DNA of 56,849 nt from a virus (taxonomy: Duplodnaviria > Caudoviricetes). The position numbers and the translations under genes are program-made. Below are positions 4,801-26,699 of this stretch, piece by piece; within the stretch, counting starts at the first letter, position 1; each line of letters starts with the position of its first letter. The DNA is taken from positions 1 through 56,849 of IMG/VR virus record IMGVR_UViG_3300019871_000001, one strand, 5' to 3'. The notes below the pieces were generated by a model, which searched no databases, was not told where the DNA came from, and worked only from the letters and a program-made list of their open reading frames with translations.

Positions 4801-4917
4801 CATTTCGCGCTTTAAAGCACCCCAACAAAGCGCGTGGTTGTTTCGCCGTTTCACAGCTGGAAGAGATGGCGTGGTTTTGCTAGGGTTCGCCATATACATC
4901 GAATGGAATGGCGCGGT

Positions 4918-4989
4918 GCTCTCATCGTATAACGGTGATTACGTGGCCTTGTCAAGGCTAATATCGGAGTTCAACTCTCCGTGGGAGCG
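4918..4989 (+). tRNA. trnD: tRNA-Asp(GTC)
   Basis: Acceptor GCTCTCA/TGGGAGC; arm TGGCC-TTGTCAA-GGCTA. Confidence 0.88.
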
Positions 4990-4993
4990 CTCA

Positions 4994-5056
4994 CTGTACA
5001 CGGCCGTCCCGTCGCATTCGTGCGGAAGTTCGCTACCTCAGGTCGGTCGTGTACAG
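4994..5056 (+). ncRNA. candidate structured small RNA between tRNA-Asp and tRNA-Met
   Basis: 13-bp closing stem CTGTACACGGCCG/CGGTCGTGTACAG enclosing a CGCA-TTCG-TGCG hairpin. Confidence 0.5.
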
Positions 5057-5062
5057 CGTTGA

Positions 5063-5134
5063 TGCGCTATGGTGTAAAGGTAACATGCAGGTCTCATAAG
5101 CCTGAAGCTCTCAGTTCGATTCTGAGTGGCGCTA
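5063..5134 (+). tRNA. trnM: tRNA-Met(CAT)
   Basis: Arm CAGGT-CTCATAA-GCCTG; T-arm CTCAG-TTCGATT-CTGAG; 1:72 mismatch. Confidence 0.88.
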
Positions 5135-5183
5135 CTTGCTTGGGTGCGTACGTACCTGAGAGAACAAAATATAGGAGCGAGAC

Positions 5184-5720
5184 GTGGCAACGTTCACACA
5201 GCGTCCATCAACATTTTACGCAGTGCAGTGGGATGGAACCAACATTGTTGACTTCCAGAACACATTTCCTTGGATGACTTTTATTGCTAATGTTGATGGT
5301 ACGTTGGATACGGGATCGTTTCATCTCCCGTTGACGTGGTGGATGTATGCTGCTGGCAATGTTGCTAGTGATGTCACGTTCCAGAGCATGTTCCAAAGCC
5401 TCGCAGGCGGGGAAGGGTATGCTTTTGCTTCACAGCTTGACATTCCTGAGCGCAGGGTGAAGAATGTTCCTCTCCCAGCGTTTGGGTTGTTGAACCTAAA
5501 GCAAACTCTTACATGCACGTTTGACACTCCAATGCCAAGCGCTGCGTATGAGGTTGCGATTTGCTTCGAAGGTAACGCTTCGTTGGTAGGGGCCCTAAAT
5601 CCACCTATGGTGATTGCAGGGTCGAAGACTTCCACAGGTTTTCAGTTTGCTGTGTCGTCTCTCGTGATTTTGGCGTTCGGGTCGATTAATGCGCGCTGCT
5701 CTGTGGTGGAAACTCCATAA
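5184..5720 (+). CDS. hypothetical protein, possibly a virion accessory
   Basis: GTG start after AGGAG; AVQWDGTN N-domain; beta-rich C-domain (TFDTPMP..YEV..STGF). Confidence 0.65.
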   Translation: MATFTQRPSTFYAVQWDGTNIVDFQNTFPWMTFIANVDGTLDTGSFHLPLTWWMYAAGNVASDVTFQSMFQSLAGGEGYAFASQLDIPERRVKNVPLPAFGLLNLKQTLTCTFDTPMPSAAYEVAICFEGNASLVGALNPPMVIAGSKTSTGFQFAVSSLVILAFGSINARCSVVETP

Positions 5721-5730
5721 CTAAATCTAT

Positions 5731-5802
5731 TGGCGTGTGGTGTAACGGTAACACGAGACCCTGTTAAGGTCCAAGCTCTAGGTTCGAATCCTGGCATGTC
5801 AG
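5731..5802 (+). tRNA. trnN: tRNA-Asn(GTT)
   Basis: Acceptor TGGCGTG/CATGTCA; loop CTGTTAA; T-loop TTCGAAT. Confidence 0.88.
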
Positions 5803-5803
5803 C

Positions 5804-5878
5804 GTTGTGCGTAGCTCAATGGTAGAGCACTGGACTGTGACTCCGGTGATGAGGGTTCGATTCCCTTCGTGCACCCCA
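5804..5878 (+). tRNA. trnH: tRNA-His(GTG)
   Basis: Loop CTGTGAC; G-1:C73; encoded CCA. Confidence 0.9.
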
Positions 5879-5953
5879 CGCGTATGAGCTAGTCTGGTTG
5901 ACTAAGGGAACCTGATAAGTTCCTTGCGCAAGGTTCGATCCCTTGATACGCGA
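5879..5953 (+). tRNA. trnI: tRNA-Ile(GAT)
   Basis: Acceptor CGCGTAT/ATACGCG; arm GGAAC-CTGATAA-GTTCC. Confidence 0.88.
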
Positions 5954-6020
5954 CTGGTGACAATAGCGCGCAACGATAGGCCAGTAAAAGAGCCGACAAT
6001 AGCGGGTGACGATAGCCTGC

Positions 6021-6091
6021 GCTTGGTTAGTATAATGGAAGTGCATCTGGCCTACACCCAGATGGCGGGGGTTCGATTCCCTCACCGAGCA
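6021..6091 (+). tRNA. trnV: tRNA-Val(TAC)
   Basis: Acceptor GCTTGGT/ACCGAGC; arm TCTGG-CCTACAC-CCAGA (C33 instead of U33). Confidence 0.85.
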
Positions 6092-6092
6092 C

Positions 6093-6317
6093 ATGGATAA
6101 CCAACACAAGAAGATCGACGGCTACCGTGATTTCGATCAGGAGACCGTTGACGCAATTAATTACATCAAGTCACTAGAGCGCGATGTTGCGTCTTATTGG
6201 AACATCGTTGGCAATGGTGACGTCGATAAGCGTGAACTGGCATTGGCTAAGACACACTTTGAAGATGCATTCATGCACTTCGTTAAGGCTGTTGCTAAGC
6301 CTGTGACGCCATGGTAA
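6093..6317 (+). CDS. acb2: Acb2-family cyclic-oligonucleotide sponge (anti-CBASS)
   Basis: MDNQHKKIDGYRDFDQETVDAIN..IK...RELALAKTHFEDAFMHFVKAVAKP matches the Acb2 pattern I recall (MDNQHKKIKGYRDL...RWLAIGKT...AIAQP). Confidence 0.85.
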   Translation: MDNQHKKIDGYRDFDQETVDAINYIKSLERDVASYWNIVGNGDVDKRELALAKTHFEDAFMHFVKAVAKPVTPW

Positions 6318-6327
6318 GATGTTTTAT

Positions 6328-6400
6328 GGGGATTTAGCTCATCAGGTAGAGCACTTGCCTTGCAAGCAAGAGGCGTCGGGTTCGAGTCCCGAATTCTCCA
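6328..6400 (+). tRNA. trnA: tRNA-Ala(TGC)
   Basis: GGGGATT start; arm CTTGC-CTTGCAA-GCAAG; T-loop TTCGAGT. Confidence 0.92.
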
Positions 6401-6410
6401 CGTTACACAA

Positions 6411-6484
6411 CAGGCTGTAGCTCAGTTTGGTAGAGTAGTCGCTTTGGAAGCGAGCGGTCGGAGGTTCAAATCCTCCCAGCCTGA
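6411..6484 (+). tRNA. trnP: tRNA-Pro(TGG)
   Basis: Acceptor CAGGCTG/CAGCCTG; loop TTTGGAA; T-loop TTCAAAT. Confidence 0.92.
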
Positions 6485-6498
6485 CTTTAGGAACACAA

Positions 6499-7326
6499 AT
6501 GGATGTAAACGAATACGCAAGGCGTAAGCAAACGATCCTCAATCGCATGATTGCGGGTCTTGTTTACGTCTTTCGTCAGTTTCTCACCCCTTTCTTGACG
6601 CGTCGATCGTGGTTTGATTTCATGCGTGTTATGTACCGCGTGATCAAGCAATACCGTGATGAAGCTACAGAGTTGGCACGTGAGTTTTATGATGACAATC
6701 GTGCCGAGCAACTCCCCGATGAGCCGCGCCATGACATCTTCAAGGACGATCATTACCCTGAAGAGTGGTTGCGTGAGACCATGGAGCCAGTGTACCAGAA
6801 TCTTCAGAAGACTGGCAATATTGAGGGTGCTGTACAGGATACGACGAATCGTGCGGTGAAGGTTGTTGAGGATAGCGCTAGGCGCACTATCCTACGTGGC
6901 CTTGACACCGACACCTCTCAGCCCATTCGCGGCTTTGCGCGTTTTGATCCTCGCCCTCCTACATGCGCGTTCTGCACAATGATGATTTCGCGTGGTCCTG
7001 TGTACGCACACGACACCGCAGGGTTCTCAGGTTCGAAGGAATCTGCCGCATCGTTGTGGCGCGACAATGACACCGATGCGATGAATGAGTTGATGAATCG
7101 CTGGCACCCAGGTTGTACATGCATCGCCGTTCCTGTGTACAAACTCTCAGGATACCCCACAGAGCGTCAGGAAGAAGAGGCACTGAAGATTTACATTGCG
7201 GCACGTAAGCGAGCGCAACGTAAGGGCGATGTTTCCTTTAAGGCAATTTTGAAGGAAATGCGTAAGGACCTTTACAACCCTTCCACAGAGGAAGATGAGA
7301 CAACTCTTACACGAAGTGTTGCTTAA
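6499..7326 (+). CDS. capsid maturation protease / MuF-like protein (L5 gp15-like)
   Basis: CAFCTMMISRGPVY and WHPGCTCIAVPV motifs; lies before the scaffold. Confidence 0.8.
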   Translation: MDVNEYARRKQTILNRMIAGLVYVFRQFLTPFLTRRSWFDFMRVMYRVIKQYRDEATELAREFYDDNRAEQLPDEPRHDIFKDDHYPEEWLRETMEPVYQNLQKTGNIEGAVQDTTNRAVKVVEDSARRTILRGLDTDTSQPIRGFARFDPRPPTCAFCTMMISRGPVYAHDTAGFSGSKESAASLWRDNDTDAMNELMNRWHPGCTCIAVPVYKLSGYPTERQEEEALKIYIAARKRAQRKGDVSFKAILKEMRKDLYNPSTEEDETTLTRSVA

Positions 7327-7384
7327 TGTAGCATGGGTGTGACACAGGCGAGTCTGGTACTTGCTCATTACCCAGGAGGTAACA

Positions 7385-7924
7385 ATGGCTGACAACACTA
7401 ATGCTTCTGACGCTACGGCTACAGGGGATGGTGATAAGGCCAGTGGAAGCGCAGCAACGACAGACGCAGCGGAAGCTACGAAGGTTGCTGAGTTGCCAAA
7501 GTGGGCACAGGATGAATTGTCTCGTGCTCGAAATGATGCGGCGTCATATCGCGCCCGCCTAAAGGACGCTAAGTCTGAGGTGGAGGCAGATGTGCGCAAG
7601 GGATTCGAAGACAAGCTACTCGCTGCTCAGAATGAAAAGACTGAGTTGCAAAACAAGCTTACGGATTCGCAGCTTTTCGGTCTTAAGATCGACGCGGCTC
7701 TTGCAGTTGGTGTTCCTGGCGATCACCTGAAGGCGTTTGCAGATCGCCTACGCGGAGATACGTTCGACGATATTAAGAAGGACGCTGAGACGATTAAGCA
7801 GACGTTCGGTGTTGGCGCTACAGGGCGTGCAACTGACCGTACGGCTGGACTCGGAAATGACAAGCCTTCTACTCCTGACGACGCTCTTGGTGGTTTCATT
7901 GGCCAGAAGCTTGGTTGGAAGTAA
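7385..7924 (+). CDS. scaffolding protein
   Basis: GGAGG RBS; LPKWAQDELSRARNDAASYR coiled coil; precedes the major capsid gene. Confidence 0.85.
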   Translation: MADNTNASDATATGDGDKASGSAATTDAAEATKVAELPKWAQDELSRARNDAASYRARLKDAKSEVEADVRKGFEDKLLAAQNEKTELQNKLTDSQLFGLKIDAALAVGVPGDHLKAFADRLRGDTFDDIKKDAETIKQTFGVGATGRATDRTAGLGNDKPSTPDDALGGFIGQKLGWK

Positions 7925-7944
7925 GTACAGAATAGGACTTTTAA

Positions 7945-9009
7945 ATGGCTTACCAGAATGAGGTATCGCCGAACCGCGATGACCGCCACCAGGGACGCCT
8001 TGCGTATCTCACAGATGATTTGCTTCCTAAGGAAGTAACTGGTCTGTTGTGGGAGCAGGCACAGGAAGCTTCGCTAGTTCTTCGTCTTGGTCGTCAGGTA
8101 CCCGTGGGTTACGGCGAGACTGTTATCCCAATGTCGAGCGTTGAGCCTGAGGTTGGTCAGGTTGGTGTGGGTACACGCCCACAGGACCGTGAGGGTTACC
8201 GTAAGCCTGTGAGTGGTATCGCGTGGGAGAGCCAGTCTTTCGCACCGATCAAGCTTGCTACCATCGTAACGGCGTCTGAGGAGTTCGCTCGCGCCAACAT
8301 CAATGGTATGTGGAGCAACATCACTTCACAGCTTGCACGCGCCATCGGCCGTGGTATCGACCTTGCTGTCTTCCAGGGTAAGCGCCCTGACAACGGTGAC
8401 CCGCTTCTTGGCATCACCAACAACGGTTACGTGAACCTTGCGCCTAACCCTATCAACTACCCTACAACTCCTGACTCTCTGGACGTTGACCTTACGAACG
8501 CTTGGGCTACCCTTGTAAACCGAGGATACAACCCTAACGCTTGGGCAATCGACCAGCGCTTCGTACCGCCTGTCCTTACCGCTCGTGACGCTCAGGGTAA
8601 CTTGATCTTCACTGGTGGACTTAACTTGGCTCAGAACTCCTTGGGTAACCTTGCGGGTCTTCCAGTTGAGCAGGGTCGCGCAGTAAGCGGAACTGTTGGT
8701 ATGGGAACTGACACTGGAACGCGTGCCGTTCTTGGTGACTGGTCTCGTTTGGTTTATGGTTACGCTGACCAGGTTCGCATTAAGGTCACCGACACTGGTG
8801 TAATTACCAGCGCCGATGGCACGCAGGTTAACCTTTGGCAGACTAACCAGGTCGCTATCTTGATCGAGACTACGTTCGGGTGGTTGGTTGACCCTAACGC
8901 TTTCGTTCGCCTTACCGACACTGCTGGAATCGTTCCTGGTACTACTACTCCTGCTGGCGAGAGCGCAGCGGATGCAGTTCCTACCGAGTTCCCTGGTCCG
9001 GCTAGCTAA
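7945..9009 (+). CDS. major capsid protein (HK97 fold)
   Basis: PIKLATIVTASEEFAR, GDWSRLVYGYADQ, NLWQTNQVAILIE resemble L5 gp17. Confidence 0.93.
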   Translation: MAYQNEVSPNRDDRHQGRLAYLTDDLLPKEVTGLLWEQAQEASLVLRLGRQVPVGYGETVIPMSSVEPEVGQVGVGTRPQDREGYRKPVSGIAWESQSFAPIKLATIVTASEEFARANINGMWSNITSQLARAIGRGIDLAVFQGKRPDNGDPLLGITNNGYVNLAPNPINYPTTPDSLDVDLTNAWATLVNRGYNPNAWAIDQRFVPPVLTARDAQGNLIFTGGLNLAQNSLGNLAGLPVEQGRAVSGTVGMGTDTGTRAVLGDWSRLVYGYADQVRIKVTDTGVITSADGTQVNLWQTNQVAILIETTFGWLVDPNAFVRLTDTAGIVPGTTTPAGESAADAVPTEFPGPAS

Positions 9010-9021
9010 TCTCCCGTGAAC

Positions 9022-9058
9022 GGGGAGGGTGTTCCCGTTTGGGGCCGCCCTCCCCTTT
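9022..9058 (+). terminator. hairpin/terminator after capsid gene
   Basis: GGGGAGGGTG...CGCCCTCCCC followed by TTT. Confidence 0.6.
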
Positions 9059-9084
9059 CGCATTTTCAGAGCATGGAAGGTGCT

Positions 9085-9474
9085 ATGAAATCCTGCCATA
9101 TTTACCAGTGTGAAGTAAAGCATTACGGTCGCGGGTTTTGTCGACGACACTACAGTTCTTTGTTTCGTGGCGGTGTCTTTGGAAACTACGTTAGGCCAGA
9201 ACCTAAGCCACCACGTGTGTCACAGTGGAAACACGATAAGTACGGCTACGTAAAAACTTCCATTGGAAATAAGACAGTATCACAGCACCGACTAGTAATG
9301 GAAATCATGCTTGATCGTCCTTTGCTTTCTGGTGAAGAAGTGCACCACAAGAACGGTGTTCGCGACGATAACCGGCCGGAAAATCTAGAGTTGTGGGTCG
9401 TCAGTCAACCCAAGGGCCAGCGTCCTGAAGACCTAGTAGAATGGGCAGAAGAAATTCTCAGGCGGTACAAATGA
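9085..9474 (+). CDS. HNH homing endonuclease
   Basis: QHRLVME...EVHHKNGVRDDNRPENLEL; N-terminal C..C/CRRHY Zn motif. Confidence 0.9.
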   Translation: MKSCHIYQCEVKHYGRGFCRRHYSSLFRGGVFGNYVRPEPKPPRVSQWKHDKYGYVKTSIGNKTVSQHRLVMEIMLDRPLLSGEEVHHKNGVRDDNRPENLELWVVSQPKGQRPEDLVEWAEEILRRYK

Positions 9475-10478
9475 AGGTTTTGTTTTTCTGTCATTTTTGG
9501 CCACCCTTCCACTTTGCTGGCTCAGAGGTTATGGGTCAGAACATCTTCAGGCATCTGCGCGAGGCAGGACATGAAACTGTCGTTGTCGCAACACATGAAT
9601 TTGACGCCCCTCTTGAGTGGGATTTTGAAGGTACTCGATGTGTTCGCACGGACACGGGACTTACAGCTTTTGAGTTGACAAGGCGTGAGGCACCTGATGT
9701 CATTTTGACGCATCACGGTGAGACCGCACCAGCACGTTCGTATGCTGAGTATCTTGATGTGCCCTTGGTCCAGGTGATCCACAATAACATGTCTTACAGC
9801 GATGTCAACCTTGGCTATGGCGCTGACTACGTTGTTTATAACACTGACTATCTACAGGCGCATTACAGGCGTTTTGGATATGACAGCTGTGTCCTCCACC
9901 CCCCTGTGTTCGCCGCTGACCACCACACCGTATCAGGTGATAAGGTGACGTTGGTAAATTTGAATGTGGACAAGGGCAGCGGCATTTTTTACGCTTTGGC
10001 CGACCGCATGCCGGATGTTGAGTTCATGGGCGTTGAGGGCGGACATGGCGGGCAAATCTTTGAGGCGCGCAGCAATGTAGTCTTTCAACGACAAACTACA
10101 AACATGCGTGACGATGTGTGGAGTAAGACTCGAATTGTTTTGATGCCGAGCATTTACGAGAGTTATGGCATGGTGGGTGTTGAGGCTATGGCGTCAGGCA
10201 TCCCTGTTATTGCCACCCCGACCTTTGGCTTGAAGGAGTCCTTGGGTTATGCGGGAACCTTCGTTGGTCGAGACGATCTTGATGCGTGGGAACGCAGCAT
10301 CCGCCACTTGTTGAACGAAGCGAATTACGCAGAGAAGTCAAGCCAAGCGTTGCGTCGTAGCGCTGAACTCGATCCTAATCGAGAACTGGCAAACGTAACC
10401 CTTGAACTTGAAAGGCTGGTGGAACAGTGGCCTACGCTACCCCGGCAGACGTCGCGGCCCGTATCGGTCGTGAGCTAA
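9471..10478 (+). CDS. GT-B (GT4-like) glycosyltransferase
   Basis: AGSE, GHET, KG, MPSIYESYGMVGVEAMASGIPVI (EX7E motif). Confidence 0.9.
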   Translation: MKVLFFCHFWPPFHFAGSEVMGQNIFRHLREAGHETVVVATHEFDAPLEWDFEGTRCVRTDTGLTAFELTRREAPDVILTHHGETAPARSYAEYLDVPLVQVIHNNMSYSDVNLGYGADYVVYNTDYLQAHYRRFGYDSCVLHPPVFAADHHTVSGDKVTLVNLNVDKGSGIFYALADRMPDVEFMGVEGGHGGQIFEARSNVVFQRQTTNMRDDVWSKTRIVLMPSIYESYGMVGVEAMASGIPVIATPTFGLKESLGYAGTFVGRDDLDAWERSIRHLLNEANYAEKSSQALRRSAELDPNRELANVTLELERLVEQWPTLPRQTSRPVSVVS

Positions 10479-10873
10479 CACCCGAAGAGACAATTCAGGT
10501 CGGCGAACTCCTTGAGGACGTTGAGGCGCTTATCAAGTTGCGCATCCCTGATCTTGACGCCAAGGTTGCTGATGGGACTATCCCTGAGCGCATTGTTGTC
10601 ATGGTGGAAGTGAATGCAGTAGTTCGTGTTCTACGCAACCCTGAGGCGTATGTCTCCGAGACTGACGGAAACTACAGTTACACACGCGCTACGAACGGTG
10701 CCACAGGCTATCTTGACCTCCTACCTATTGAGTGGGATTGGTTGTTTGGTGGAAATGGGATGTTTCAGATTATCCCGATCTCCCCTTATGGTGAAAGTGT
10801 CGAGGGCGCTAGGCAGCCCAACGCCCATTATTGGTGCCCTCCATCGTGGGGATTCACAGTTAGGGTGCCTTAA
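10427..10873 (+). CDS. head-to-tail adaptor (L5 gp19-like)
   Basis: MAYATPADVAARIGREL; RNPEAYVSETDGNYSY. Confidence 0.88.
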   Translation: MAYATPADVAARIGRELTPEETIQVGELLEDVEALIKLRIPDLDAKVADGTIPERIVVMVEVNAVVRVLRNPEAYVSETDGNYSYTRATNGATGYLDLLPIEWDWLFGGNGMFQIIPISPYGESVEGARQPNAHYWCPPSWGFTVRVP

Positions 10874-11962: not shown

Positions 11963-11976
11963 AGGAGAATTAACAA

Positions 11977-19077: not shown

Positions 19078-19084
19078 GGATAAT

Positions 19085-19627: not shown

Positions 19628-19647
19628 CCCCTAACGGAGGAATTGCT

Positions 19648-20591: not shown

Positions 20592-21466
20592 ATGATCTTG
20601 CAAGCATGTTGCGTGCAGGAGGAATGAATGTTGTTGAAGTTGGTGGATGGCAGAGTCGTAATCATGGTTCTCTGAAGACCGTGTCATCTATCATCTGTCA
20701 TCACACTGCTGGAGCAGCGACAGGTAATTTTCCATCATTGAATGTCGTAACGTATGGTCGATCTGACCTGCCCGGTCCACTATGTAATTTGGGCTTGGGA
20801 CGTGACGGTACTGTATTTGTTGTGTCTAATGGCACTGCGTGGCATGCGGGCGCGACAATCAACGACAACATTTACGGCAATTACAATTCGTTGGGTATTG
20901 AGGCTGAGAACACAGGTACAGGACAGGCGTGGCCTGAGGTTCAGGTTAATGCGTACGCGAAGCTGTGCGCCTTGTTGTGCAAGCACTACGGCGTATCGGT
21001 GGATCGTGTAAAGGGTCACAAGGAAATTTGTTCCCCTGCTGGGCGCAAGGTTGACCCTGCCAATCTTCCCGGAGACATGAATGGTTTGCGCGCTCGCGTA
21101 ACCGGATACATTTCAGGTGGAGACACAGGAACCCCACCTGCAACGACAAAGGATGGTTTGGAACTTATGGAGCGCATTACAGTTAAGGCAAGCGCGGACA
21201 CTATAAGCATTCGTGTGCGCCTTCCAGGTGGGCCGAACGCTAAGATCATTGTGCGCCCGCCTGTAGAGGGTGGTGCTAACCCTGTGTGGTTGGGTAATGT
21301 CTATGCGTGGGGCAGCGACAAGTCTGGTGTTGGGGGTAACCCTAAGAATATCGTTGGTTACAATCCTAAGATTGCGTACTCACGTAACGTTCCATTGGCT
21401 GAGGCTGTGTGGGCTGACGTCGAATACTCGTGCTACGAAGACTTCATCATTGAGGTGATTGGATAA
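20582..21466 (+). CDS. endolysin, N-acetylmuramoyl-L-alanine amidase
   Basis: ICHHTAG, AWHAG, LGIEAEN, KGHKE, RKVDP amidase_2 motifs. Confidence 0.92.
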   Translation: MYVNDLASMLRAGGMNVVEVGGWQSRNHGSLKTVSSIICHHTAGAATGNFPSLNVVTYGRSDLPGPLCNLGLGRDGTVFVVSNGTAWHAGATINDNIYGNYNSLGIEAENTGTGQAWPEVQVNAYAKLCALLCKHYGVSVDRVKGHKEICSPAGRKVDPANLPGDMNGLRARVTGYISGGDTGTPPATTKDGLELMERITVKASADTISIRVRLPGGPNAKIIVRPPVEGGANPVWLGNVYAWGSDKSGVGGNPKNIVGYNPKIAYSRNVPLAEAVWADVEYSCYEDFIIEVIG

Positions 21467-21468
21467 TT

Positions 21469-21726
21469 ATGTGGACTGCTAAGTTCTGGAAGGAAGCGAC
21501 GGAGCGCGCCATCAAGACGGCCGCACAGTTTGCCCTTGTGTTCCTCGGAGCAGATGGGGGTGGACTTCTCACGTTGAATTGGAATGTGGCCGGTATTGCT
21601 ATTGCTGGTGGAGCGCTCGCTTCATACATCACTAGTATCATCAGCGCCGCTACGCCTTCAGGGGAAATCACTCCGAACTTCCGTAGTGGTAAGACTACAG
21701 ATGGCAACCCTGACACGGACGCCTAA
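21469..21726 (+). CDS. holin (r1t-like)
   Basis: FWKEATERAIKTAAQ plus two hydrophobic segments; after lysin. Confidence 0.85.
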   Translation: MWTAKFWKEATERAIKTAAQFALVFLGADGGGLLTLNWNVAGIAIAGGALASYITSIISAATPSGEITPNFRSGKTTDGNPDTDA

Positions 21727-21736
21727 AAATTGATAT

Positions 21737-21777
21737 GGAAAAGCCCCACACATCATCGTGATGTGTGGGGCTTTTCC
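21737..21777. terminator. bidirectional terminator between convergent arms
   Basis: GGAAAAGCCCCACACATCA-TCG-TGATGTGTGGGGCTTTTCC. Confidence 0.9.
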
Positions 21778-21940
21778 TATGCGTCCTTGACACCCATCTC
21801 TAGAAACGCAAACGCTGTCTTGAACTCTCGCCTGGCAAGTTCCACGAAGTCTTCGTCGACATCAGGAGCACCACGTAGTGATCCTACCACGAGATAGACA
21901 CGCGCGCGGAGACGTTCGATGTCCTTGTCATACTGATGAC

Positions 21941-22147
21941 TCACACATCCTCCTCTGCTTCATCATCTTCATCGTCGGTGTTGATGGCGTTAGCAATGGC
22001 CTCACATGCTCCTGCCAGCCCCATCAACAACACAAATACAATCCCACCAATTAGCAATGCCATCATCGTTGCGCCGAGAGCGACGAATACATAACCCACG
22101 CTCCCTAGAACGATAATCAAGGCTAGGCATCCTCGCATCTCGATCAC
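21941..22147 (-). CDS. small membrane protein
   Basis: Two TMs with acidic tail. Confidence 0.6.
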   Translation of the reverse strand: MIEMRGCLALIIVLGSVGYVFVALGATMMALLIGGIVFVLLMGLAGACEAIANAINTDDEDDEAEEDV

Positions 22148-22250
22148 TTCCCTTCGCTATTTAACCCACATGTCCTCATCAATGATGTTACTTTCTAACT
22201 CCAACAGGTTTTGAATCGCTTGCTCTGCGTCAAATTCTTCATCGTACAAC

Positions 22251-22808
22251 TCACAACCCCAATTCGTTGATCAACTTCTGCGCCGCATTGCTGAGATCTT
22301 GCCGTGTACCGTTGTTGAACACAACACGATCAACTGCGATATCTCCCACTGAAACATCAGAAGTGTGTGCATTAACAGGGCCAAAACCATCGCGCACAAT
22401 CCTCACCATAACACCACCATACGCCTTAACCAACGTTGCCTCATTGGCGTATCGCACACCTGTGATGGCTGTGTGCACCCCGTCCTCTTCGTTGGCGATG
22501 ATGGTGCGCTCAGCAACACGCAACCACACGTCCTGCCCTAGGATGTTACGACAAGCTTCCGTGCCCAGTACTTGAAGATATTCGCGAACGCCCTTGTGAT
22601 TCTTCGCTTCAGTGTACCCTTCCCTATTCACCACGTCAACGTAACTGTACCAATCACGTTGGTCATCTGACAGAATAGGATTCAGCACCATTGCCATCTT
22701 ATGCAAGGGGTCGGAGAATGCCATGGTTCGTGTGCGGGAGCGCAAGGCAAGGGATTTGGCGAACTCATCCTTCCCTGCCTGTGCGTAGCCTGTAAGCCCA
22801 ATGATCAT
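22251..22808 (-). CDS. deoxynucleoside monophosphate kinase
   Basis: MIIGLTGYAQAGKD P-loop; REYLQVLGTE; VRYANE. Confidence 0.88.
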   Translation of the reverse strand: MIIGLTGYAQAGKDEFAKSLALRSRTRTMAFSDPLHKMAMVLNPILSDDQRDWYSYVDVVNREGYTEAKNHKGVREYLQVLGTEACRNILGQDVWLRVAERTIIANEEDGVHTAITGVRYANEATLVKAYGGVMVRIVRDGFGPVNAHTSDVSVGDIAVDRVVFNNGTRQDLSNAAQKLINELGL

Positions 22809-22809
22809 G

Positions 22810-23001
22810 TTAGTCCTTAAACGCAGCGACAACGGCAATGATCATGAGAAGTACAAGGAACAACGCAAACCCAATCCACAGCGGAGAAAACACCCACCAC
22901 CACGACCACGCAATGACATTCGTCAGCTTCAGGATCACGAACGCTAGTGTAGTAAGACTGAGGATACCGACGCCACCACTGTTGTTAGAAGAGTCACTCA
23001 C
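22810..23001 (-). CDS. small membrane protein
   Basis: LKLTNVIAWSWWWVFSPLW, a common phage membrane motif. Confidence 0.7.
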   Translation of the reverse strand: MSDSSNNSGGVGILSLTTLAFVILKLTNVIAWSWWWVFSPLWIGFALFLVLLMIIAVVAAFKD

Positions 23002-23143
23002 TTTTCTGCCTCCTTTTTCTTCTCGTTCTTTTTCTTGAGCTCCTTGATCACCTTGTCATAAACAGGTGTCGGCTCCTTCTTCATTGATGGTAGCACTCCA
23101 CTCACCTTCTTGTCAACTGCTTCTGTAAACCACTTACTCGCCA

Positions 23144-23491
23144 TCATTCATCCCAACGTTTGGTGTTCTTGTTGCGCCCCGCCGCATCGTACAATTCGTA
23201 GTCGGAACCGCCTACCTGTGACTTAGAGTGCCCGATGCACAGTTTATTACCCTTACACTTCCCACGCTTGCAAGGATCGTTACGCGTCACCTTCCCCTTA
23301 ACCTTCGCAACAACACGACTCTTCGTCTCAATTTTAACTTGGCGCTTAACGATCTTAGGTTCGACAGTCCCCTTGCGCGATGCCGCCTTCTTCATGTTCC
23401 TATGCGCAGTATCGCATTTACTCTTCGTGTCAAACCACACAACGTTACTACCTGTGCGCACACCGTACTGTGTTTCAGTCTTACCAAACAT
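23144..23491 (-). CDS. basic hypothetical protein
   Basis: ORF track; Lys-rich with Cys cluster. Confidence 0.6.
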   Translation of the reverse strand: MFGKTETQYGVRTGSNVVWFDTKSKCDTAHRNMKKAASRKGTVEPKIVKRQVKIETKSRVVAKVKGKVTRNDPCKRGKCKGNKLCIGHSKSQVGGSDYELYDAAGRNKNTKRWDE

Positions 23492-23673
23492 TACAGGCGC
23501 TCCTCTCGAAGTTCAGCTTCCCTAATTGAAGGGTCAGCAGCCATCTTAGCACGTGTAGACTTAGCCTTTGCCAATGACGTACCAGAAGGCAAGCGCTTAA
23601 CTCTCCAATCTCTATCATTGTGCTTCTTGTATGCGATCCTGAAGATCCGTGTAGGTTTTCCAGCCATGCGGCA

Positions 23674-23702
23674 ACACTAGCCCATCATCGTGAGGTTGTC
23701 AA
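23674..23702 (-). promoter_or_regulatory. sigmaA-type promoter
   Basis: TTGACA-17nt-TAGTGT on minus strand, after the hairpin closing tRNA array 2. Confidence 0.65.
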
Positions 23703-23756
23703 CCCCCAAATGAAACAACCCCTCGCACAGTCGGTTAGACCATACGAGGGGAAGCG

Positions 23757-23830
23757 AGCCACTGACAGGAATCGAACCCGCGTACTCCATCTTACAAGGA
23801 TGGCGCTCAGCCAACATGAGCAACAGAGGC
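23757..23830 (-). tRNA. trnT: tRNA-Thr(TGT)
   Basis: Arm CCATC-CTTGTAA-GATGG; T-loop TTCGATT. Confidence 0.9.
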
Positions 23831-23917
23831 ATACCGACTTTATGGCAGTCGTCGCCACCCAAATCCATGGGCGTCCCGTTCATGCTAAGGATTTTACGGG
23901 CAACTATGTTTTTAACG

Positions 23918-23989
23918 TGGGCCCACACAGCATCGAACTGTGATCTTCCGGGTAAGAGCCGGAGGTTTTACCAATTATACTATAGGCCC
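23918..23989 (-). tRNA. trnK: tRNA-Lys(CTT)
   Basis: Acceptor GGGCCTA/TGGGCCC; arm TCCGG-CTCTTAC-CCGGA. Confidence 0.88.
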
Positions 23990-23993
23990 AATG

Positions 23994-24353
23994 TCACCTG
24001 TAACGCTTTTGATACTCTCTCTTTAGTACAGCGCACCTATCACAGTAGCAGTTCTTCTTACCACTGATACCCTCGCCGTGATCCACGCTCTGTTCGGTTC
24101 CTGATTTCTTAGCGTGGCATGACTTGCATCGTAGCACACACTTCTCAAGTTCCGCAACTACCTTACTGCGCTTATGAGTAATGCATTTTCCTACGTCGAA
24201 AGATTTAGTTGTTCGATCAACATGGTCAAATTCTAGCTGAGATACGGTACCACAGTCTACACACTTCCCGCCAAGCATGTCTACGTATTCTGCGCGTAGC
24301 CTGTGGTACCGCTTACTCATGTATGCTTTCATGTACTCGTTTGAATTGCTCAT
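23994..24353 (-). CDS. HNH endonuclease inside tRNA array 2
   Basis: GGKCVDCG...LEFDHVD...KCVLRCKSCHAKK. Confidence 0.88.
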   Translation of the reverse strand: MSNSNEYMKAYMSKRYHRLRAEYVDMLGGKCVDCGTVSQLEFDHVDRTTKSFDVGKCITHKRSKVVAELEKCVLRCKSCHAKKSGTEQSVDHGEGISGKKNCYCDRCAVLKREYQKRYR

Positions 24354-24417
24354 GAAAGCATACTACATTAAGAGTTCTAACTACGAAGTTAAGCGCCTCA
24401 CGTATGAAGCGCCGAGT

Positions 24418-24654
24418 TTAGTATCCGAACAACTCTTCCATGCGTGCGGAAATTTGAACTTCGTGCCTAACATCTTCCGAATCTACATAGTAGATGTGAA
24501 CTTCATGCACGTCATACGAGCAAGTTTCACATCCGCCCGTGTTGTATGACTCTTCGTAGTAAGATGTGACACGCACCACATCTTCAATCTCATGTTCCTC
24601 ACGCAAGAACTCCGCTAGGAACTCATGGAAGCGATCCTTCCACGTCTCTGCCAT
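24418..24654 (-). CDS. acidic hypothetical protein
   Basis: ORF track; GGCETCSYD motif. Confidence 0.65.
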   Translation of the reverse strand: MAETWKDRFHEFLAEFLREEHEIEDVVRVTSYYEESYNTGGCETCSYDVHEVHIYYVDSEDVRHEVQISARMEELFGY

Positions 24655-24675
24655 CTTGTCAACCCCTTCCTTGAG

Positions 24676-24746
24676 AAAGTTGCCCCGGAGTTGAACCGGG
24701 CTAAGTAGATTTGCAGTCTACCACATAACCGCTCTGACAGCAACTC
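24676..24746 (-). tRNA. trnC: tRNA-Cys(GCA)
   Basis: Arm GTAGA-CTGCAAA-TCTAC; U73 discriminator. Confidence 0.88.
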
Positions 24747-24750
24747 ACGG

Positions 24751-24835
24751 CGGGGACAGGAGGATTCGAACCTCCGTCGCTGTTACACGATTCACTTTAG
24801 CAAAGTGATGCTATCGGCCGCTCAGCCATATCCCC
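24751..24835 (-). tRNA. trnS: tRNA-Ser(GCT)
   Basis: Arm TCACT-TTGCTAA-AGTGA; long variable arm; G73. Confidence 0.9.
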
Positions 24836-24841
24836 ATACTA

Positions 24842-25183
24842 TTATTTAACAACCCACTTACCATTCGCGTCTTTCACTTCCGTGCGAATGTTACGTGGAT
24901 CGTTGATTGAACGTTCAACTTCTGCACTTAGCAAATCGTCTCGTCCAACACGCTTCTTAATGTACAGTTGAAACTCAGGACTGTCAACCATACGCCTGAA
25001 CGCAAGCTTCTTGTTTTGCAACTGCGAACGCTCGTCTCTAGCTTCACCACGCGCCCCGCTCTCGTGGTGAATTACACGAACGCCCGTATCACGTTTGTTC
25101 TGATTCTGTCCACCCTTGCCGCCTGAGCGGAATGTTTGGACTTCACAATCATCAATCTTGACTGAGAACGCTAGCTCGCTCAC
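24842..25183 (-). CDS. GGQ-domain peptidyl-tRNA hydrolase / release-factor-like ribosome rescue protein
   Basis: TFRSGGKGGQNQNKRDTGVRVIH...ERSQLQNKKLA (RF-1 catalytic domain only). Confidence 0.9.
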   Translation of the reverse strand: MSELAFSVKIDDCEVQTFRSGGKGGQNQNKRDTGVRVIHHESGARGEARDERSQLQNKKLAFRRMVDSPEFQLYIKKRVGRDDLLSAEVERSINDPRNIRTEVKDANGKWVVK

Positions 25184-25254
25184 GGGCTGTCTCCCAATCT
25201 AATTCGTTGGCGTCTTCTACAATGACCAATAGATAATCTTCAATGTTTTTCATG

Positions 25255-25335
25255 CGGAACCCTGAGGAATCGAACCCCACGCTTGACGCGCCCTACGGTT
25301 TTCAAGACCGCTTGCCTCCATAGGCGGAAGACTCC
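25255..25335 (-). tRNA. trnS: tRNA-Ser(TGA)
   Basis: Arm GCGGT-CTTGAAA-ACCGT; long variable arm. Confidence 0.85.
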
Positions 25336-25339
25336 ATAC

Positions 25340-25419
25340 TGCACATAGTGGTAGGATTCGAACCTACGAATCGGTACCCTCCTCGGGCCCGTCGTGTGCC
25401 TCTCGACTCACATAGTGCA
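25340..25419 (-). ncRNA. tRNA-like RNA with non-canonical acceptor and anticodon arms
   Basis: Perfect T-arm GTAGG-TTCGAAT-CCTAC and D-like arm, but extended bulged acceptor and no U33 anticodon loop. Confidence 0.6.
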
Positions 25420-25422
25420 TTG

Positions 25423-25494
25423 CTCTCCCGTCTGGATTCGAACCAAAATCAGGCAGGTTCAGAGCCTGCTATCTTACCATTAGAACACAGGAGA
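25423..25494 (-). tRNA. trnQ: tRNA-Gln(CTG)
   Basis: Arm GCAGG-CTCTGAA-CCTGC; acceptor TCTCCTG/CGGGAGA. Confidence 0.9.
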
Positions 25495-25630
25495 TTAACG
25501 CGGTCCACGACTCCGCACGGCAATCGTATGTATGCTTACCACATCATGCTGAACGTGGCCACAGTGCCGAGTGTTACTTGCGCGTAACTTTCGTGTATAA
25601 TATTGCGTCATGCAGCCCCGGCGGTGCACA

Positions 25631-25708
25631 TGGTACCACTGAGAGGATTCGAACCTCCGACGCCTAGCTTCGTAGGCTAGCGCTCTATCCAGACTGAGCT
25701 ACAGCGGC
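25631..25708 (-). tRNA. trnR: tRNA-Arg(ACG)
   Basis: Arm CTAGC-CTACGAA-GCTAG; encoded CCA. Confidence 0.93.
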
Positions 25709-25715
25709 ATGTGAT

Positions 25716-25850
25716 TTACTTCTTGATCTTCTTCAGCTTCGCCTTGGCGTGTACTCCACACAACCATAGCGTCTTCTTACCTGTAATAACAAGCTGTGTA
25801 GTAGCAATGTTACCACAGAAATTCGTGTCACACTTCTTATCTGACAACAT
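25716..25850 (-). CDS. small basic Cys/His protein (44 aa)
   Basis: GAGGAGG RBS; MLSDKKCDTNFC...LCGVHAK. Confidence 0.5.
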   Translation of the reverse strand: MLSDKKCDTNFCGNIATTQLVITGKKTLWLCGVHAKAKLKKIKK

Positions 25851-25877
25851 TCCTCCTCTTGTTATTAAATTGTTACG

Positions 25878-25949
25878 TACCCTAGGCAGGATTCGAACCT
25901 GCGACCAAACGCTTAGGAGGCGCTAACTCTTCCGCTGAGCTACAAGGGT
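25878..25949 (-). tRNA. trnR: tRNA-Arg(CCT)
   Basis: Arm AGCGC-CTCCTAA-GCGTT; T-loop TTCGAAT. Confidence 0.9.
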
Positions 25950-26003
25950 ATGTATCGCTCCCACAGCATATGCCCACGAAGGGCGCAATGTACAGCGATA
26001 ACG

Positions 26004-26076
26004 TGCGGTATGAGGGACTCGAACCCTCACATTCAGTTTGGAAGACTGACATGCTAGCCATTAACATCAATACCAC
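26004..26076 (-). tRNA. trnG: tRNA-Gly(TCC)
   Basis: Arm TCAGT-CTTCCAA-ACTGA. Confidence 0.9.
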
Positions 26077-26119
26077 ATGTGCAGAGCCTCACCACCATAT
26101 AGGACCAGAGGATGCAACG

Positions 26120-26199
26120 TCTCAGCACTAGGAATTGAACCTAGTCGCCCAAAGGCTACGGTGTTACAGACCGCTGGGCAGCCATCGCCCACTACTGAG
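26120..26199 (-). tRNA. trnY: tRNA-Tyr(GTA)
   Basis: Arm GCGGT-CTGTAAC-ACCGT; long variable arm. Confidence 0.85.
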
Positions 26200-26209
26200 T
26201 TGTAAAACG

Positions 26210-26281
26210 TCTTCAAAGACGGGATCGAACCGCCGCATCTGGTACTTCACACCAGCGCTCTACCAACTGAGCTATTTGAAG
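26210..26281 (-). tRNA. trnF: tRNA-Phe(GAA)
   Basis: Acceptor CTTCAAA/TTTGAAG; arm CTGGT-GTGAAGT-ACCAG (unusual G32/G37/U38). Confidence 0.85.
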
Positions 26282-26337
26282 TTACGACAGTTTTGTTTTG
26301 GCGTGACACCCATTGAAGCGTTTCCTAGGACACTTTC

Positions 26338-26367
26338 AATCTAGCACACCGTTCAGGCGTCTGTCAA
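26338..26367 (-). promoter_or_regulatory. internal sigmaA-type promoter of tRNA array 2
   Basis: TTGACA-18nt-TAGATT. Confidence 0.65.
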
Positions 26368-26374
26368 CTGAGCG

Positions 26375-26459
26375 TACACAAGGTGGGACTCGAACCCACA
26401 CCCACTTCCGTGGACCGCATTTTGAGTGCGGCGCGTCTGCCAATTCCAGCCACTCGTGC
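26375..26459 (-). tRNA. trnL: tRNA-Leu(CAA)
   Basis: Arm CCGCA-CTCAAAA-TGCGG; long variable arm. Confidence 0.9.
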
Positions 26460-26507
26460 ATAACACCTTTAGCTGTGCACATTTGTGGTGACAGCGCTTC
26501 GGTGTAG

Positions 26508-26580
26508 TGAGCCCCGGGAGATTCGAACTCCCACTGTACAGGGTCTAAGCCTGTTTCCTCTGCCGTTGGGATAGAGGCCC
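26508..26580 (-). tRNA. trnL: tRNA-Leu(TAG), short variable arm
   Basis: Arm ACAGG-CTTAGAC-CCTGT; A73. Confidence 0.85.
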
Positions 26581-26622
26581 ATGTGCCGCGATATTGACGG
26601 TACCGTCGCGGCCAGCGGTAGT

Positions 26623-26699
26623 TTAGCAGTGAGGTACCCCGAGATACGTCCACCAACGACCGACTTGTTAAGGTCAGCCCCCGATGTCCTCACTACTAA
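26623..26699 (-). ncRNA. candidate structured leader RNA of tRNA array 2
   Basis: 12-bp stem TTAGTAGTGAGG/CCTCACTGCTAA with internal hairpins, starting just after the promoter. Confidence 0.45.

What the first reader, a model, noticed from the sequence alone, without database searches (positions are those of the whole stretch)
4801..26699. tRNA-punctuated arrays appear to carry a cargo of non-tRNA structured RNAs
Seen: many inter-tRNA spacers fold into self-contained closed structures rather than short linkers: 4806-4915, 4994-5056, 5955-6018, 23851-23904, 25340-25419, 25497-25630, 25953-26000, 26464-26505, 26585-26699. Two of them end with the same CGTT trailer that follows six real tRNAs. 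Inference: tRNA 5'/3' processing would release them as discrete small RNAs, so the arrays may deliver decoy or regulatory RNAs alongside the Acb2 and GGQ proteins, forming an RNA-based counter-defence module.
Basis: inference. Interest (0 to 1): 0.78.

Follow-up and report, generated by a model that had tools for sequence, protein, structure and literature searches.

The report
Swappable hairpin spacers between phage tRNAs
The stretches between this soil phage's tRNA genes are a mixed, fast-changing set of promoters, small RNA hairpins and one decayed tRNA, not a conserved cargo of decoy RNAs, so the finding is partly real but mostly ordinary.

Summary
The window is a complete 56.8-kb uncultured soil phage with two tRNA operons (10 + 13 tRNAs). 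4 of the 9 listed elements fold better than shuffles (z -2.1 to -3.2). 6 of 11 inter-tRNA spacers have paired ends, against 1.5 expected. The other five listed elements do not beat shuffles.

The spacers are not one class. Two hold consensus promoters, one listed element is the operon's 5' leader, one is a direct repeat, one is a decayed tRNA, and one carries a 40-nt module that sits at three different tRNA junctions in three phages. No Rfam family matches any of them.

In relatives 88-98% identical, spacers are deleted or replaced flush with the tRNA borders. Some hairpins do keep their pairing through compensatory changes, for example the one before tRNA-Glu.

Best reading: optional, recombining cis elements (promoters, leader and boundary hairpins, tRNA debris) that tRNA processing releases as by-products. 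A trans-acting decoy role is untested and, for most, argued against by their turnover. This scan has noted similar structured tRNA-array spacers in other viral genomes.

The parts
4522..4550 (+). Promoter-like site (TTGACA-17-TAGAGT) in front of tRNA-Trp, the start of array 1
   Evidence: The pattern TTGACA-N16-18-TAnnnT occurs 27 times in the window against 1.64 expected (0 of 100 shuffles reach this).
4634..4663 (+). Promoter-like site (TTGACA-18-TACACT) inside the Trp>Glu spacer. Its -10 hexamer lies in the loop of a 10-bp inverted repeat (4648-4657 / 4664-4673).
   Evidence: Kept in L154 with the -10 changed to TATACT.
4697..4724 (+). Conserved 7-bp hairpin ending 4 nt before tRNA-Glu (arms 4697-4703 and 4718-4724)
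   Evidence: 9 distinct relatives, 86.1% of cells paired, 5 of 8 pairs changed on both sides, covariation 0.448 against 0.239 in shuffles (0 of 500 reach it). All slid controls score lower.
4806..4834 (+). 8-bp hairpin just after tRNA-Glu (arms 4806-4813 and 4827-4834). It is a cassette shared with the distant G002 but replaced in the near relative L154.
   Evidence: 16 of 16 cells paired, 1 compensatory pair, n=2, not significant.
4844..4913 (+). Two hairpins with the same arms (CGCCRT/ATGGCG at 4844-4849/4866-4871 and 4888-4893/4908-4913). The arms are kept in L154 while the loops differ.
   Evidence: My reading. The whole 116-nt spacer has z +0.45.
4994..5056 (+). Closed hairpin with a 13-bp closing stem, between tRNA-Asp and tRNA-Met
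   Evidence: (z -3.24, 0 of 200). The spacer is identical (72 of 72 nt) in L154. Other relatives carry different sequence at this junction.
5959..6015 (+). Two 21-nt direct repeats (86% identical) in the Ile>Val spacer
   Evidence: The whole spacer is absent in L154 (8 nt instead). z -0.53.
26701..26729 (-). Promoter-like site (TTGACA-17-TAGAGT) of array 2
26581..26699 (-). 5' leader of array 2: a long first hairpin (26699-26623) and a second hairpin (26614-26582)
   Evidence: z -2.94, 0 of 200. In the X3/X4 relative, 47 inner nt of hairpin 1 are replaced by 5 nt while the closing stem stays. The hairpin 2 sequence recurs before tRNA-Leu in L003.
26460..26506 (-). Closed hairpin between tRNA-Leu(tag) and tRNA-Leu(caa)
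   Evidence: z -3.09, 3 of 200. Kept in the X3/X4 relative with one change, in the loop (my mapping). Distant relatives have an 18-nt 5-bp hairpin here.
26338..26367 (-). Promoter-like site (TTGACA-18-TAGATT) inside the Leu(caa)>Phe spacer 26282-26373
   Evidence: The 92-nt spacer is exactly absent in X3/X4 contigs (joint 26281>26374).
25950..26002 (-). Closed 53-nt hairpin between tRNA-Gly and tRNA-Arg(cct)
   Evidence: z -2.08, 8 of 200. L004 has a different 53-nt closed hairpin at this junction, L003 a 121-nt one, and L072 only 4 nt.
25495..25630 (-). 136-nt Arg(acg)>Gln spacer with no significant fold, filled by a 44-codon open frame with no relatives
   Evidence: (z +0.35). Kept in X3/X4 with 4 listed changes.
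25341..25418 (-). Decayed tRNA or tRNA look-alike: perfect T-arm, bulged terminal stem, no usable anticodon loop
   Evidence: Not called by ARAGORN at default or by Rfam at E<=10. Called as weak tRNA-Pro(agg) only at ARAGORN -ps80. Replaced by 46 other letters in an X3 contig.
23869..23910 (-). 40-nt conserved module (5-bp stem, 16-nt loop) inside the Lys>Thr spacer
   Evidence: 95% identical over 42 nt to L004; 97% to L076 and 92% to L079 over 39 nt, but those copies sit at the Arg>Gln and Gln>Ser junctions. Single copy per genome.
23719..23751 (-). Intrinsic-terminator-like hairpin plus T-run after tRNA-Thr, the end of array 2
   Evidence: Equivalent terminators follow tRNA-Thr in relatives.

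Best explanation
The two arrays are ordinary polycistronic tRNA operons of an actinophage-like soil virus. Their inter-tRNA spacers are a heterogeneous, optional and rapidly exchanged set of cis-acting pieces. These are sigma-70-type promoters, a 5' leader with a terminal stem-loop, short boundary hairpins that fold on themselves next to tRNA ends, one decayed tRNA, and a small module that moves between junctions. The hairpins most likely keep leader and trailer sequence from pairing with the neighbouring tRNAs and give defined, exonuclease-resistant ends. RNase P at the 5' ends, and an RNase E- or RNase Z-type cut before the universal C74 at the 3' ends, then release them as by-products. Recombination between related phages, using the conserved tRNA genes as shared flanks, swaps the spacers as cassettes. 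Shown: the anatomy, the excess of end-pairing, the covariation of some hairpins, and the presence/absence and replacement in relatives. Inferred: the insulating or stabilising role, the processing enzymes, and the recombination mechanism.
For: (1) Heterogeneity. Promoter consensus lies in two spacers and before both arrays. The leader follows the array-2 promoter. One spacker is a direct repeat. One is a tRNA remnant. (2) Structure. 4 of 12 folded stretches have z<=-2. 6 of 11 spacers are closed against 1.5 expected, and 18 of 150 control segments are closed. The same excess appears in 40 spacers of clade relatives (12 closed against 5.6; 15 with z<-2) and in 98 spacers of other RF-1-bearing phage loci (27 against 12.9; 23 with z<-2). 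(3) Selection on pairing rather than sequence. The pre-Glu hairpin has 5 of 8 pairs with double changes (0 of 500 shuffles reach its covariation score). The pre-Phe hairpin of relatives is paired in 39 of 39 cells with 3 double changes (29 of 500). In the X3/X4 relative the leader hairpin keeps its stem while its interior is replaced. (4) Dispensability and turnover. In L154 (neighbour gene 96% aa identical, shared blocks 88-98% nt), 5955-6020 is absent and 4802-4831 is replaced. In X3/X4 contigs, 26282-26373 is exactly absent and 25341-25418 is replaced. Several tRNA pairs abut with 0-2 nt, so no spacer is needed for processing. (5) Processing context. All 23 tRNAs are followed by C, 12 by C-N-U and 6 by CGUU. 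This fits the mycobacterial RNase E preference RN|CNU (PMC10641625, passages read). (6) No known RNA family matches at E<=10.
Against: No RNA data exist, so release, stability and ends are unobserved. Five listed spacers show no significant fold, so 'boundary hairpin' does not explain them. The 40-nt module is conserved in sequence, including its 16-nt loop (92-97% over 39 nt, while the flanking tRNAs matched at 73-86%). That looks more like a specific recognition site or a recent transfer than a generic insulator. The perfect T-arm of the tRNA look-alike could mean it is maintained rather than decaying. The covariation tests rest on few sequences (n=2-9), and the shuffle control does not correct for relatedness. 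The host, and therefore its RNases, is unknown.
Confidence: 0.55

Rival explanations
1. At least some cassettes are trans-acting small RNAs (decoys, sponges or regulators) cut out by tRNA-processing enzymes. The best candidates are the 40-nt module, the tRNA look-alike at 25341-25418, and the 13-bp closed hairpin at 4994-5056.
For: The closed folds lie 1-6 nt from tRNA borders. The module is conserved in sequence, including its loop, across diverged phages and at three junctions. The tRNA look-alike has a perfect T-arm. The phage does carry Acb2-type and RF-1-domain genes inside the arrays. From recall only: T4 makes stable non-tRNA RNAs from its tRNA cluster, and an E. coli tRNA spacer acts as an sRNA sponge.
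Against: No target or partner was found. The loop's complement occurs nowhere else in the window with up to 3 mismatches. The module is absent from G001 (98% complete) and single-copy in G002. The look-alike is replaced in an X3 contig of a near relative. No Rfam match. Most cassettes are unique to one lineage: blastn-short of the window's 11 spacers against the pool of 149 unique spacers found only the module.
Confidence: 0.2
2. The spacers are largely neutral debris: scars of gene and tRNA insertion or loss, and small palindromic inserts created or moved by DNA-level events. Their hairpins have no RNA function.
For: Presence/absence and replacement occur flush with tRNA borders in near relatives. 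ORFs come and go at the same junctions: the 178-aa ORF is absent in L154, the RF-1 region is replaced in X3/X4, and a small ORF is present in L069 but not in L068. There are tRNA remnants. The module sits at three junctions. Five of nine listed elements are no more stable than shuffles.
Against: Compensatory changes keep pairing in the pre-Glu hairpin and in the pre-Phe hairpin of relatives. End-pairing is enriched over shuffles and over random genomic segments. The module is single-copy per genome, unlike a proliferating mobile element.
Confidence: 0.2
3. Some spacers encode small leaderless peptides rather than RNAs, for example the 44-codon frame that fills 25495-25629.
For: The frame runs from nt 2 of the spacer to a stop flush with tRNA-Gln. 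Other array genes start directly after a tRNA: the Acb2-type gene starts 1 nt after the Rfam end of tRNA-Val, and a 33-codon frame starts right after tRNA-Ser(tga). This spacer has no significant RNA fold.
Against: No homologue was found among proteins of 24-77 aa. By my mapping, the 4 listed changes in the X3/X4 relative alter 3 codons, all non-synonymously. An open frame of this length in 136 nt is not unlikely by chance (my rough estimate, about 0.1 per frame).
Confidence: 0.04

Closest known systems
Phage T4 stable RNAs species 1 and 2 (rnaC, rnaD) in the T4 tRNA cluster (recalled, not checked in a paper here; also named by an earlier scan note)
   Same: Non-tRNA RNA segments co-transcribed with phage tRNAs and freed by tRNA-processing enzymes, with unknown function.
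   Different: The T4 species are defined RNAs of about 120-140 nt, shown to accumulate. The elements here are 40-136 nt, differ from each other, are not shown to accumulate, and are gained or lost between near relatives.
Theta ribozymes, HDV-like ribozymes next to phage tRNAs (PMC10879173; abstract and passages read)
   Same: Small structured RNAs directly abutting phage tRNA genes and tied to tRNA end formation.
   Different: No HDV-type or other ribozyme family matched at E<=10. By my reading, the closing stems here start 1-3 nt from the upstream tRNA, which leaves no room for a 5' P1 strand ahead of P2. The published descriptor is in a supplement I could not open.
Functional tRNA-operon spacers in E. 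coli (3'ETS of leuZ acting as an sRNA sponge) and RNase P-matured phage hairpin RNAs such as P1/P7 C4 RNA (both recalled, no paper read)
   Same: Show that spacer or hairpin RNA released by tRNA-type processing can act in trans.
   Different: Those have defined partners and conserved sequence. No partner and little conservation were found here.
tRNA arrays of Cluster M mycobacteriophages (search listing and PMC7953290 passages; the original description PMC3958112 is not held)
   Same: About twenty tRNA genes with an RF-1-domain gene embedded. The RF-1 gene here matches those phages at 70-75% nt over about 150-190 nt.
   Different: This genome is 57 kb rather than about 80 kb, and only tRNA genes and the RF-1 gene match at DNA level. 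I could not check what that literature says about spacers.

Membership tests
tRNA (Rfam RF00005), for 25341-25418 | Cloverleaf scoring at or above the family threshold | tested here: not met
   No tRNA-clan match at E<=10 over 25336-25421. Not called by ARAGORN at default. Called as tRNA-Pro(agg) only at -ps80, a setting that also calls sites inside ORFs and antisense to tRNAs.
tRNA (Rfam RF00005), for 25341-25418 | T-arm with GGTTCGAATCC-type loop; 7-nt anticodon loop with U33 | tested here: inconclusive
   By my reading, the T-arm is present and perfectly paired. The candidate anticodon arm has a 5-nt loop in the fold. In the ARAGORN -ps80 call, position 33 would be G.
Known structured RNA families, including self-cleaving ribozymes (HDV-like, hammerhead, twister, pistol, hatchet), Y RNA/YrlA, ROOL/GOLLD | Covariance-model match | tested here: not met
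   Only tRNA matched at gathering score over the whole window. At E<=10 the only non-tRNA rows in the arrays overlap tRNA genes or are far below threshold (YrlA 23.2 and 18.6 bits against 69).
Theta (minimal HDV-like) ribozyme | Nested double pseudoknot with P1 starting at the cleavage site next to the tRNA, and a catalytic C in J4/2 | not testable with these tools
   The descriptor is in a closed supplement. Only an inspection of the architecture argues against membership.
T4-type stable RNAs of tRNA clusters | Lies within a tRNA transcription unit | tested here: met
   The spacers lie between same-strand tRNAs, bounded by a promoter at 26729-26701 and a terminator at 23751-23719.
T4-type stable RNAs of tRNA clusters | Accumulates as a discrete stable RNA | not testable with these tools
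   No RNA run was available for this virus.
Sigma-70-type promoter (spacers 4632-4728 and 26282-26373) | TTGACA, 16-18 nt, TAnnnT | tested here: met
   27 sites in the window against 1.64 expected; two lie inside spacers and two lie ahead of the arrays. Activity was not tested.
Intrinsic terminator | GC-rich hairpin followed by a T-run | tested here: not met
   No such site lies in any spacer of the window. The only site on the transcribed strand that is not a tRNA arm follows tRNA-Thr. In relatives the Gln>Ser spacers do end in TTTT.
Miniature mobile element (MITE-like), for the 40-nt module | Several copies per genome and different insertion sites | tested here: inconclusive
   Three different junctions in three phages, but one copy per genome, none in G001, and none in cultured phages or GTDB genomes. 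No target duplication was seen.

The most novel reading that the evidence does not exclude
Phage tRNA operons of this clade act as a launch pad for a pool of exchangeable, self-closing RNA cassettes. tRNA genes supply both the recombination flanks that let cassettes move between phages and junctions and the processing sites that release them. At least the sequence-conserved 40-nt module and the T-arm-bearing tRNA look-alike would then be trans-acting RNAs, for example decoys for tRNA-directed host enzymes.
Probability: 0.15. Interest if true: 0.7.

Novelty: new variant of a known kind. Interest (0 to 1): 0.35.

Why it matters
If the spacers were trans-acting RNAs, phage tRNA arrays would be a delivery system for small RNAs, which would be a new layer of phage-host conflict. 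What the evidence shows is more modest but useful. Spacers in these arrays are modular cis elements under selection for self-pairing. They are exchanged between phages with the tRNA genes as fixed anchors. The universal C after the discriminator points to a specific 3'-processing route in an actinobacterial host. This gives concrete, cheap tests: express the array, map RNA ends, delete cassettes. It also warns against reading every foldable spacer as an RNA gene.

Tried and rejected
Known RNA families: Rfam at gathering score over the window, and at E<=10 over both arrays, found nothing but tRNA in the spacers.

Cryptic tRNAs: relaxed ARAGORN found only the 25341-25418 look-alike among the spacers.

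Shared sequence motif: k-mer enrichment in spacers gave nothing that survives multiple testing. GACRATAGC occurs only in the one spacer.

Hairpins bracketing the -10 hexamer as a general promoter feature: rejected. 4 of 27 promoters have at least 6 bp, against 15.7% of random controls.

Target for the module's loop: no complement elsewhere in the window.

Module in cultured phages or in 185,579 GTDB genomes: none.

Peptide reading of 25495-25629: no homologue.

Closer relatives of array 2: a scan with the upstream 134-aa protein found none, and a scan with the 178-aa array ORF found none.

Expression: no RNA holder was listed for this stretch, so expression and RNA ends could not be examined. 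The read-laying run used DNA contigs only.

The Cluster M phage paper (PMC3958112) is not held. Two literature searches for phage tRNA-cluster stable RNAs or spacers found nothing relevant. I therefore do not claim the phenomenon is unpublished.

The similarity between the stem of 4994-5056 and the pre-Phe hairpin of L003 (about 10 of 11 arm bases with one indel) was judged compatible with chance and is not used.

The two 53-nt Gly>Arg hairpins (window and L004) are out of register, so they are treated as analogous and not as covariation.

Rows kept in the counts although they are not pure spacers: five 144-nt Ser>Ser 'spacers' that hold a small ORF, and two L072 'spacers' that hold uncalled tRNAs.

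Full report
WHAT THE WINDOW IS. The window is a whole IMG/VR virus record of 56,849 bp, estimated complete. DNA runs that hold it are labelled soil metagenomes. ARAGORN finds 23 tRNAs in two same-strand arrays: 10 on the + strand (4557-6485) and 13 on the - strand (26580-23756). Rfam confirms 19 at gathering score and 2 more below it. Cultured phages match only at tRNA genes and at the RF-1-domain gene, where Mycobacterium phages match at 70-75% nt. Genes embedded in the arrays include an Acb2/Tad1-hairpin protein (6093-6317, 55.4 bits against a cutoff of 27), an RF-1/GGQ domain protein (25183-24842, 61.2 bits against 35) and an HNH endonuclease (24353-23994, PHROG). Array 2 is one operon. It has a promoter-like site at 26729-26701, a 119-nt leader, the tRNAs and ORFs, and a terminator-like hairpin at 23751-23719.

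CHECK OF THE OBSERVATION. I folded 12 non-coding stretches on the transcribed strand against 200 dinucleotide shuffles. Of the nine listed elements, four beat the shuffles: 4994-5056 (z -3.24), 25953-26000 (-2.08), 26464-26505 (-3.09) and 26585-26699 (-2.94). Five do not: 4806-4915 (+0.45), 5955-6018 (-0.53), 23851-23904 (-0.90), 25340-25419 (-1.42) and 25497-25630 (+0.35). In an independent script with 100 shuffles, 3 of 11 inter-tRNA spacers had z<-2. Six of 11 were 'closed', meaning a helix of at least 4 bp joining the first 6 and last 8 nt, against 1.5 expected (P 0.0014). Among 150 random window segments of matching lengths, 18 were closed and 10 had z<-2 (Fisher P 0.0017 and 0.047; rank test on z, P 0.011). 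So end-pairing next to tRNAs is more than chance, but it holds for about half the spacers. The same excess is seen in 40 unique spacers of clade relatives (12 closed against 5.6 expected; 15 with z<-2) and in 98 spacers from other phage loci carrying an RF-1-domain gene (27 against 12.9; 23 with z<-2). It is a property of such arrays in general.

ANATOMY, ELEMENT BY ELEMENT.
This pattern occurs 27 times in the window against 1.64 expected.
- 26585-26699 is the operon leader, not a spacer.
- 5955-6018 is two 21-nt direct repeats.
- 25341-25418 has a perfect T-arm and a bulged terminal stem. It fails Rfam at E<=10 and default ARAGORN, and is called only at -ps80 as tRNA-Pro(agg). It is a decayed tRNA or tRNA look-alike.
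- 4802-4917 is composite. It has an 8-bp hairpin right after tRNA-Glu and two hairpins that share the arms CGCCRT/ATGGCG.
- 25495-25630 has no significant fold. It is filled by a 44-codon frame with no relatives.
- 4994-5056, 25950-26002 and 26460-26506 are true closed hairpins.
- No terminator-like site lies in any spacer.
- No Rfam family other than tRNA matches.

DISTANT RELATIVES. Protein-anchored scans found syntenic arrays in uncultured phages. The RF-1 protein is 69-71% identical and the gene next to array 1 is 49-65% identical. The tRNA order is largely kept, but the spacers are not.
- The Leu>Leu junction holds 47 nt in the window and an 18-nt 5-bp hairpin in relatives.
- The Gly>Arg junction holds 53, 53, 121 or 4 nt, of unrelated sequence.
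- The Lys>Thr junction holds 86 nt in the window, 15 nt in most relatives and 136 nt in one.
- The Gln>Ser junction holds a different cassette in the window, L003, L004, L076/L072 and L079.

Blastn-short of the window's 11 spacers against the pool of 149 unique spacers found only one shared piece. That piece is a 40-nt module (23869-23910) that is 92-97% identical over 39 nt to copies in L076 and L079. Those copies lie at the Arg(acg)>Gln and Gln>Ser(tga) junctions rather than Lys>Thr, each at a similar offset after the upstream tRNA. The module is single-copy in the window and in G002. It is absent from G001 (98% complete), from cultured phages and from GTDB genomes.

NEAR RELATIVES. L154 has a neighbour gene 96% aa identical and shared nt blocks of 88-98%.
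- It keeps the Trp>Glu spacer with 2 changes, one of which turns the -10 hexamer TACACT into TATACT.
- It keeps the Asp>Met hairpin spacer unchanged (72 of 72 nt).
- It lacks 5955-6020 (8 nt instead) and the 178-aa ORF (14 nt instead).
- It has a different cassette with its own promoter in place of 4802-4831.

The hairpin at 4806-4834 is instead shared with the distant G002.

Contigs of soil runs X3/X4 carry a near relative of array 2, with 13 differing letters over 25419-25951.
- A joint at 26281>26374 removes the 92-nt promoter spacer exactly.
- A joint at 25340>25419 in an X3 contig replaces the tRNA look-alike by 46 other letters.
- A joint at 26633>26681 replaces 47 inner nt of the first leader hairpin by 5 nt while keeping its closing stem.
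- A joint at 24745>25249 replaces the RF-1 region by 107 letters.

The changes listed inside retained spacers fall in loops or convert to G-U or A-U pairs in the predicted folds. That is my mapping onto, and it is weak evidence because one of those folds is itself not significant. Several tRNA pairs abut with 0-2 nt, so spacers are not required for maturation.

SELECTION ON PAIRING. The hairpin ending 4 nt before tRNA-Glu (4697-4703 / 4718-4724) aligns across 9 distinct relatives. 86.1% of cells are paired. 5 of 8 pairs changed on both sides (9 of 500 shuffles reach this). The covariation score is 0.448 against 0.239 (0 of 500), and all slid controls score lower. Two rows (L155 and L166) are partly out of register and count as misses. 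The post-Glu hairpin has 1 compensatory pair between two sequences, which is not significant. A 13-bp hairpin before tRNA-Phe in relatives is paired in 39 of 39 cells, with 3 double changes (29 of 500). For the window's own closed hairpins I have no informative relatives.

PROCESSING SIGNALS. By my reading, all 23 tRNAs are followed by C after the discriminator, yet only 3 by CCA. Twelve are followed by C-N-U and six by CGUU, and two spacers end in CGUU(G/A)A. Mycobacterial RNase E cuts single-stranded RNA at RN|CNU (PMC10641625, passages). The pattern therefore fits a cut directly after the discriminator in an actinobacterial host. An RNase Z route, or retention of the first C of CCA, would fit as well. 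This is inference.

INTERPRETATION. The evidence fits cis-acting, optional modules best: promoters, a protective leader stem-loop, self-pairing boundary hairpins and tRNA debris, exchanged as cassettes with tRNA genes as anchors. A trans-acting cargo is not excluded for the 40-nt module and the tRNA look-alike. It has no positive support, and it is hard to square with replacement or loss in relatives 88-98% identical. A purely neutral reading is contradicted by the covariation and by the excess of end-pairing.

COMPARISON WITH WHAT IS KNOWN. The nearest published kinds are the T4 stable RNAs in its tRNA cluster (recalled) and the theta ribozymes next to phage tRNAs (PMC10879173, passages). Membership in either is unsupported or untestable here. 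Earlier notes of this scan describe structured spacers in tRNA arrays of other viral genomes, so the general phenomenon has been seen before by this scan. Those notes are leads, not evidence.

LIMITS. The theta descriptor and the Cluster M paper could not be read. The host is unknown.

Noticed in passing
all 23 tRNA 3' ends, e.g. 5803-5806, 6401-6404, 26002-25999: Every tRNA is followed by C after the discriminator, but only Trp, His and Arg(acg) by CCA. 12 have C-N-T and 6 have CGTT. About two thirds of the tRNAs have T directly before their 5' end.
   Followed up: partly
25253-25152 (-) and 6093-6317 (+): Array ORFs start flush with tRNA ends. A 33-codon frame begins right after tRNA-Ser(tga), and the Acb2-type gene begins 1 nt after the Rfam end of tRNA-Val. 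This suggests leaderless mRNAs created by tRNA 3' processing.
   Followed up: partly
25629-25495 (-): A 44-codon GTG frame fills the whole Arg(acg)>Gln spacer and stops flush with tRNA-Gln. No homologue was found.
   Followed up: yes
4648-4673 (+): A 10-bp inverted repeat brackets the -10 hexamer of the promoter in the Trp>Glu spacer. This is not a general feature of the window's 27 promoter-like sites.
   Followed up: yes
24745-25249 (near relative in runs X3/X4): In near-relative contigs the RF-1-domain gene region (503 nt) is replaced by 107 other letters, so the GGQ protein is itself optional.
   Followed up: no
5137-5716 (+): The 178-aa ORF between tRNA-Met and tRNA-Asn has no Pfam or PHROG match and is absent from the near relative L154. 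More distant relatives carry a shorter ORF with a similar N-terminus at the Asn>Met junction.
   Followed up: partly
L003 2801-3086 and L004 2783-3082: The long Phe>Gly 'spacers' of relatives contain tRNA-like sequences that ARAGORN did not call (a Tyr-like one and another with an odd anticodon arm). L003's 121-nt Gly>Arg spacer contains two T-arm-like hairpins.
   Followed up: no
relatives L155-L161, L068, L069: last ~40 nt before tRNA-Asp or Glu(ttc): A second conserved hairpin family ends in CATGGTCTT just before the tRNA. Its arms vary in a complementary way (GCGGT/ACCGC, ACGGT/ACCGT, GTGGT/ACCAC, GCTGT/ACAGC), and a -10-like hexamer lies at the 5' arm. The window lacks it.
   Followed up: no
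23994-24353 (-): An HNH endonuclease gene lies directly upstream of tRNA-Lys and of the spacer that holds the 40-nt module. No link between them was shown.
   Followed up: no
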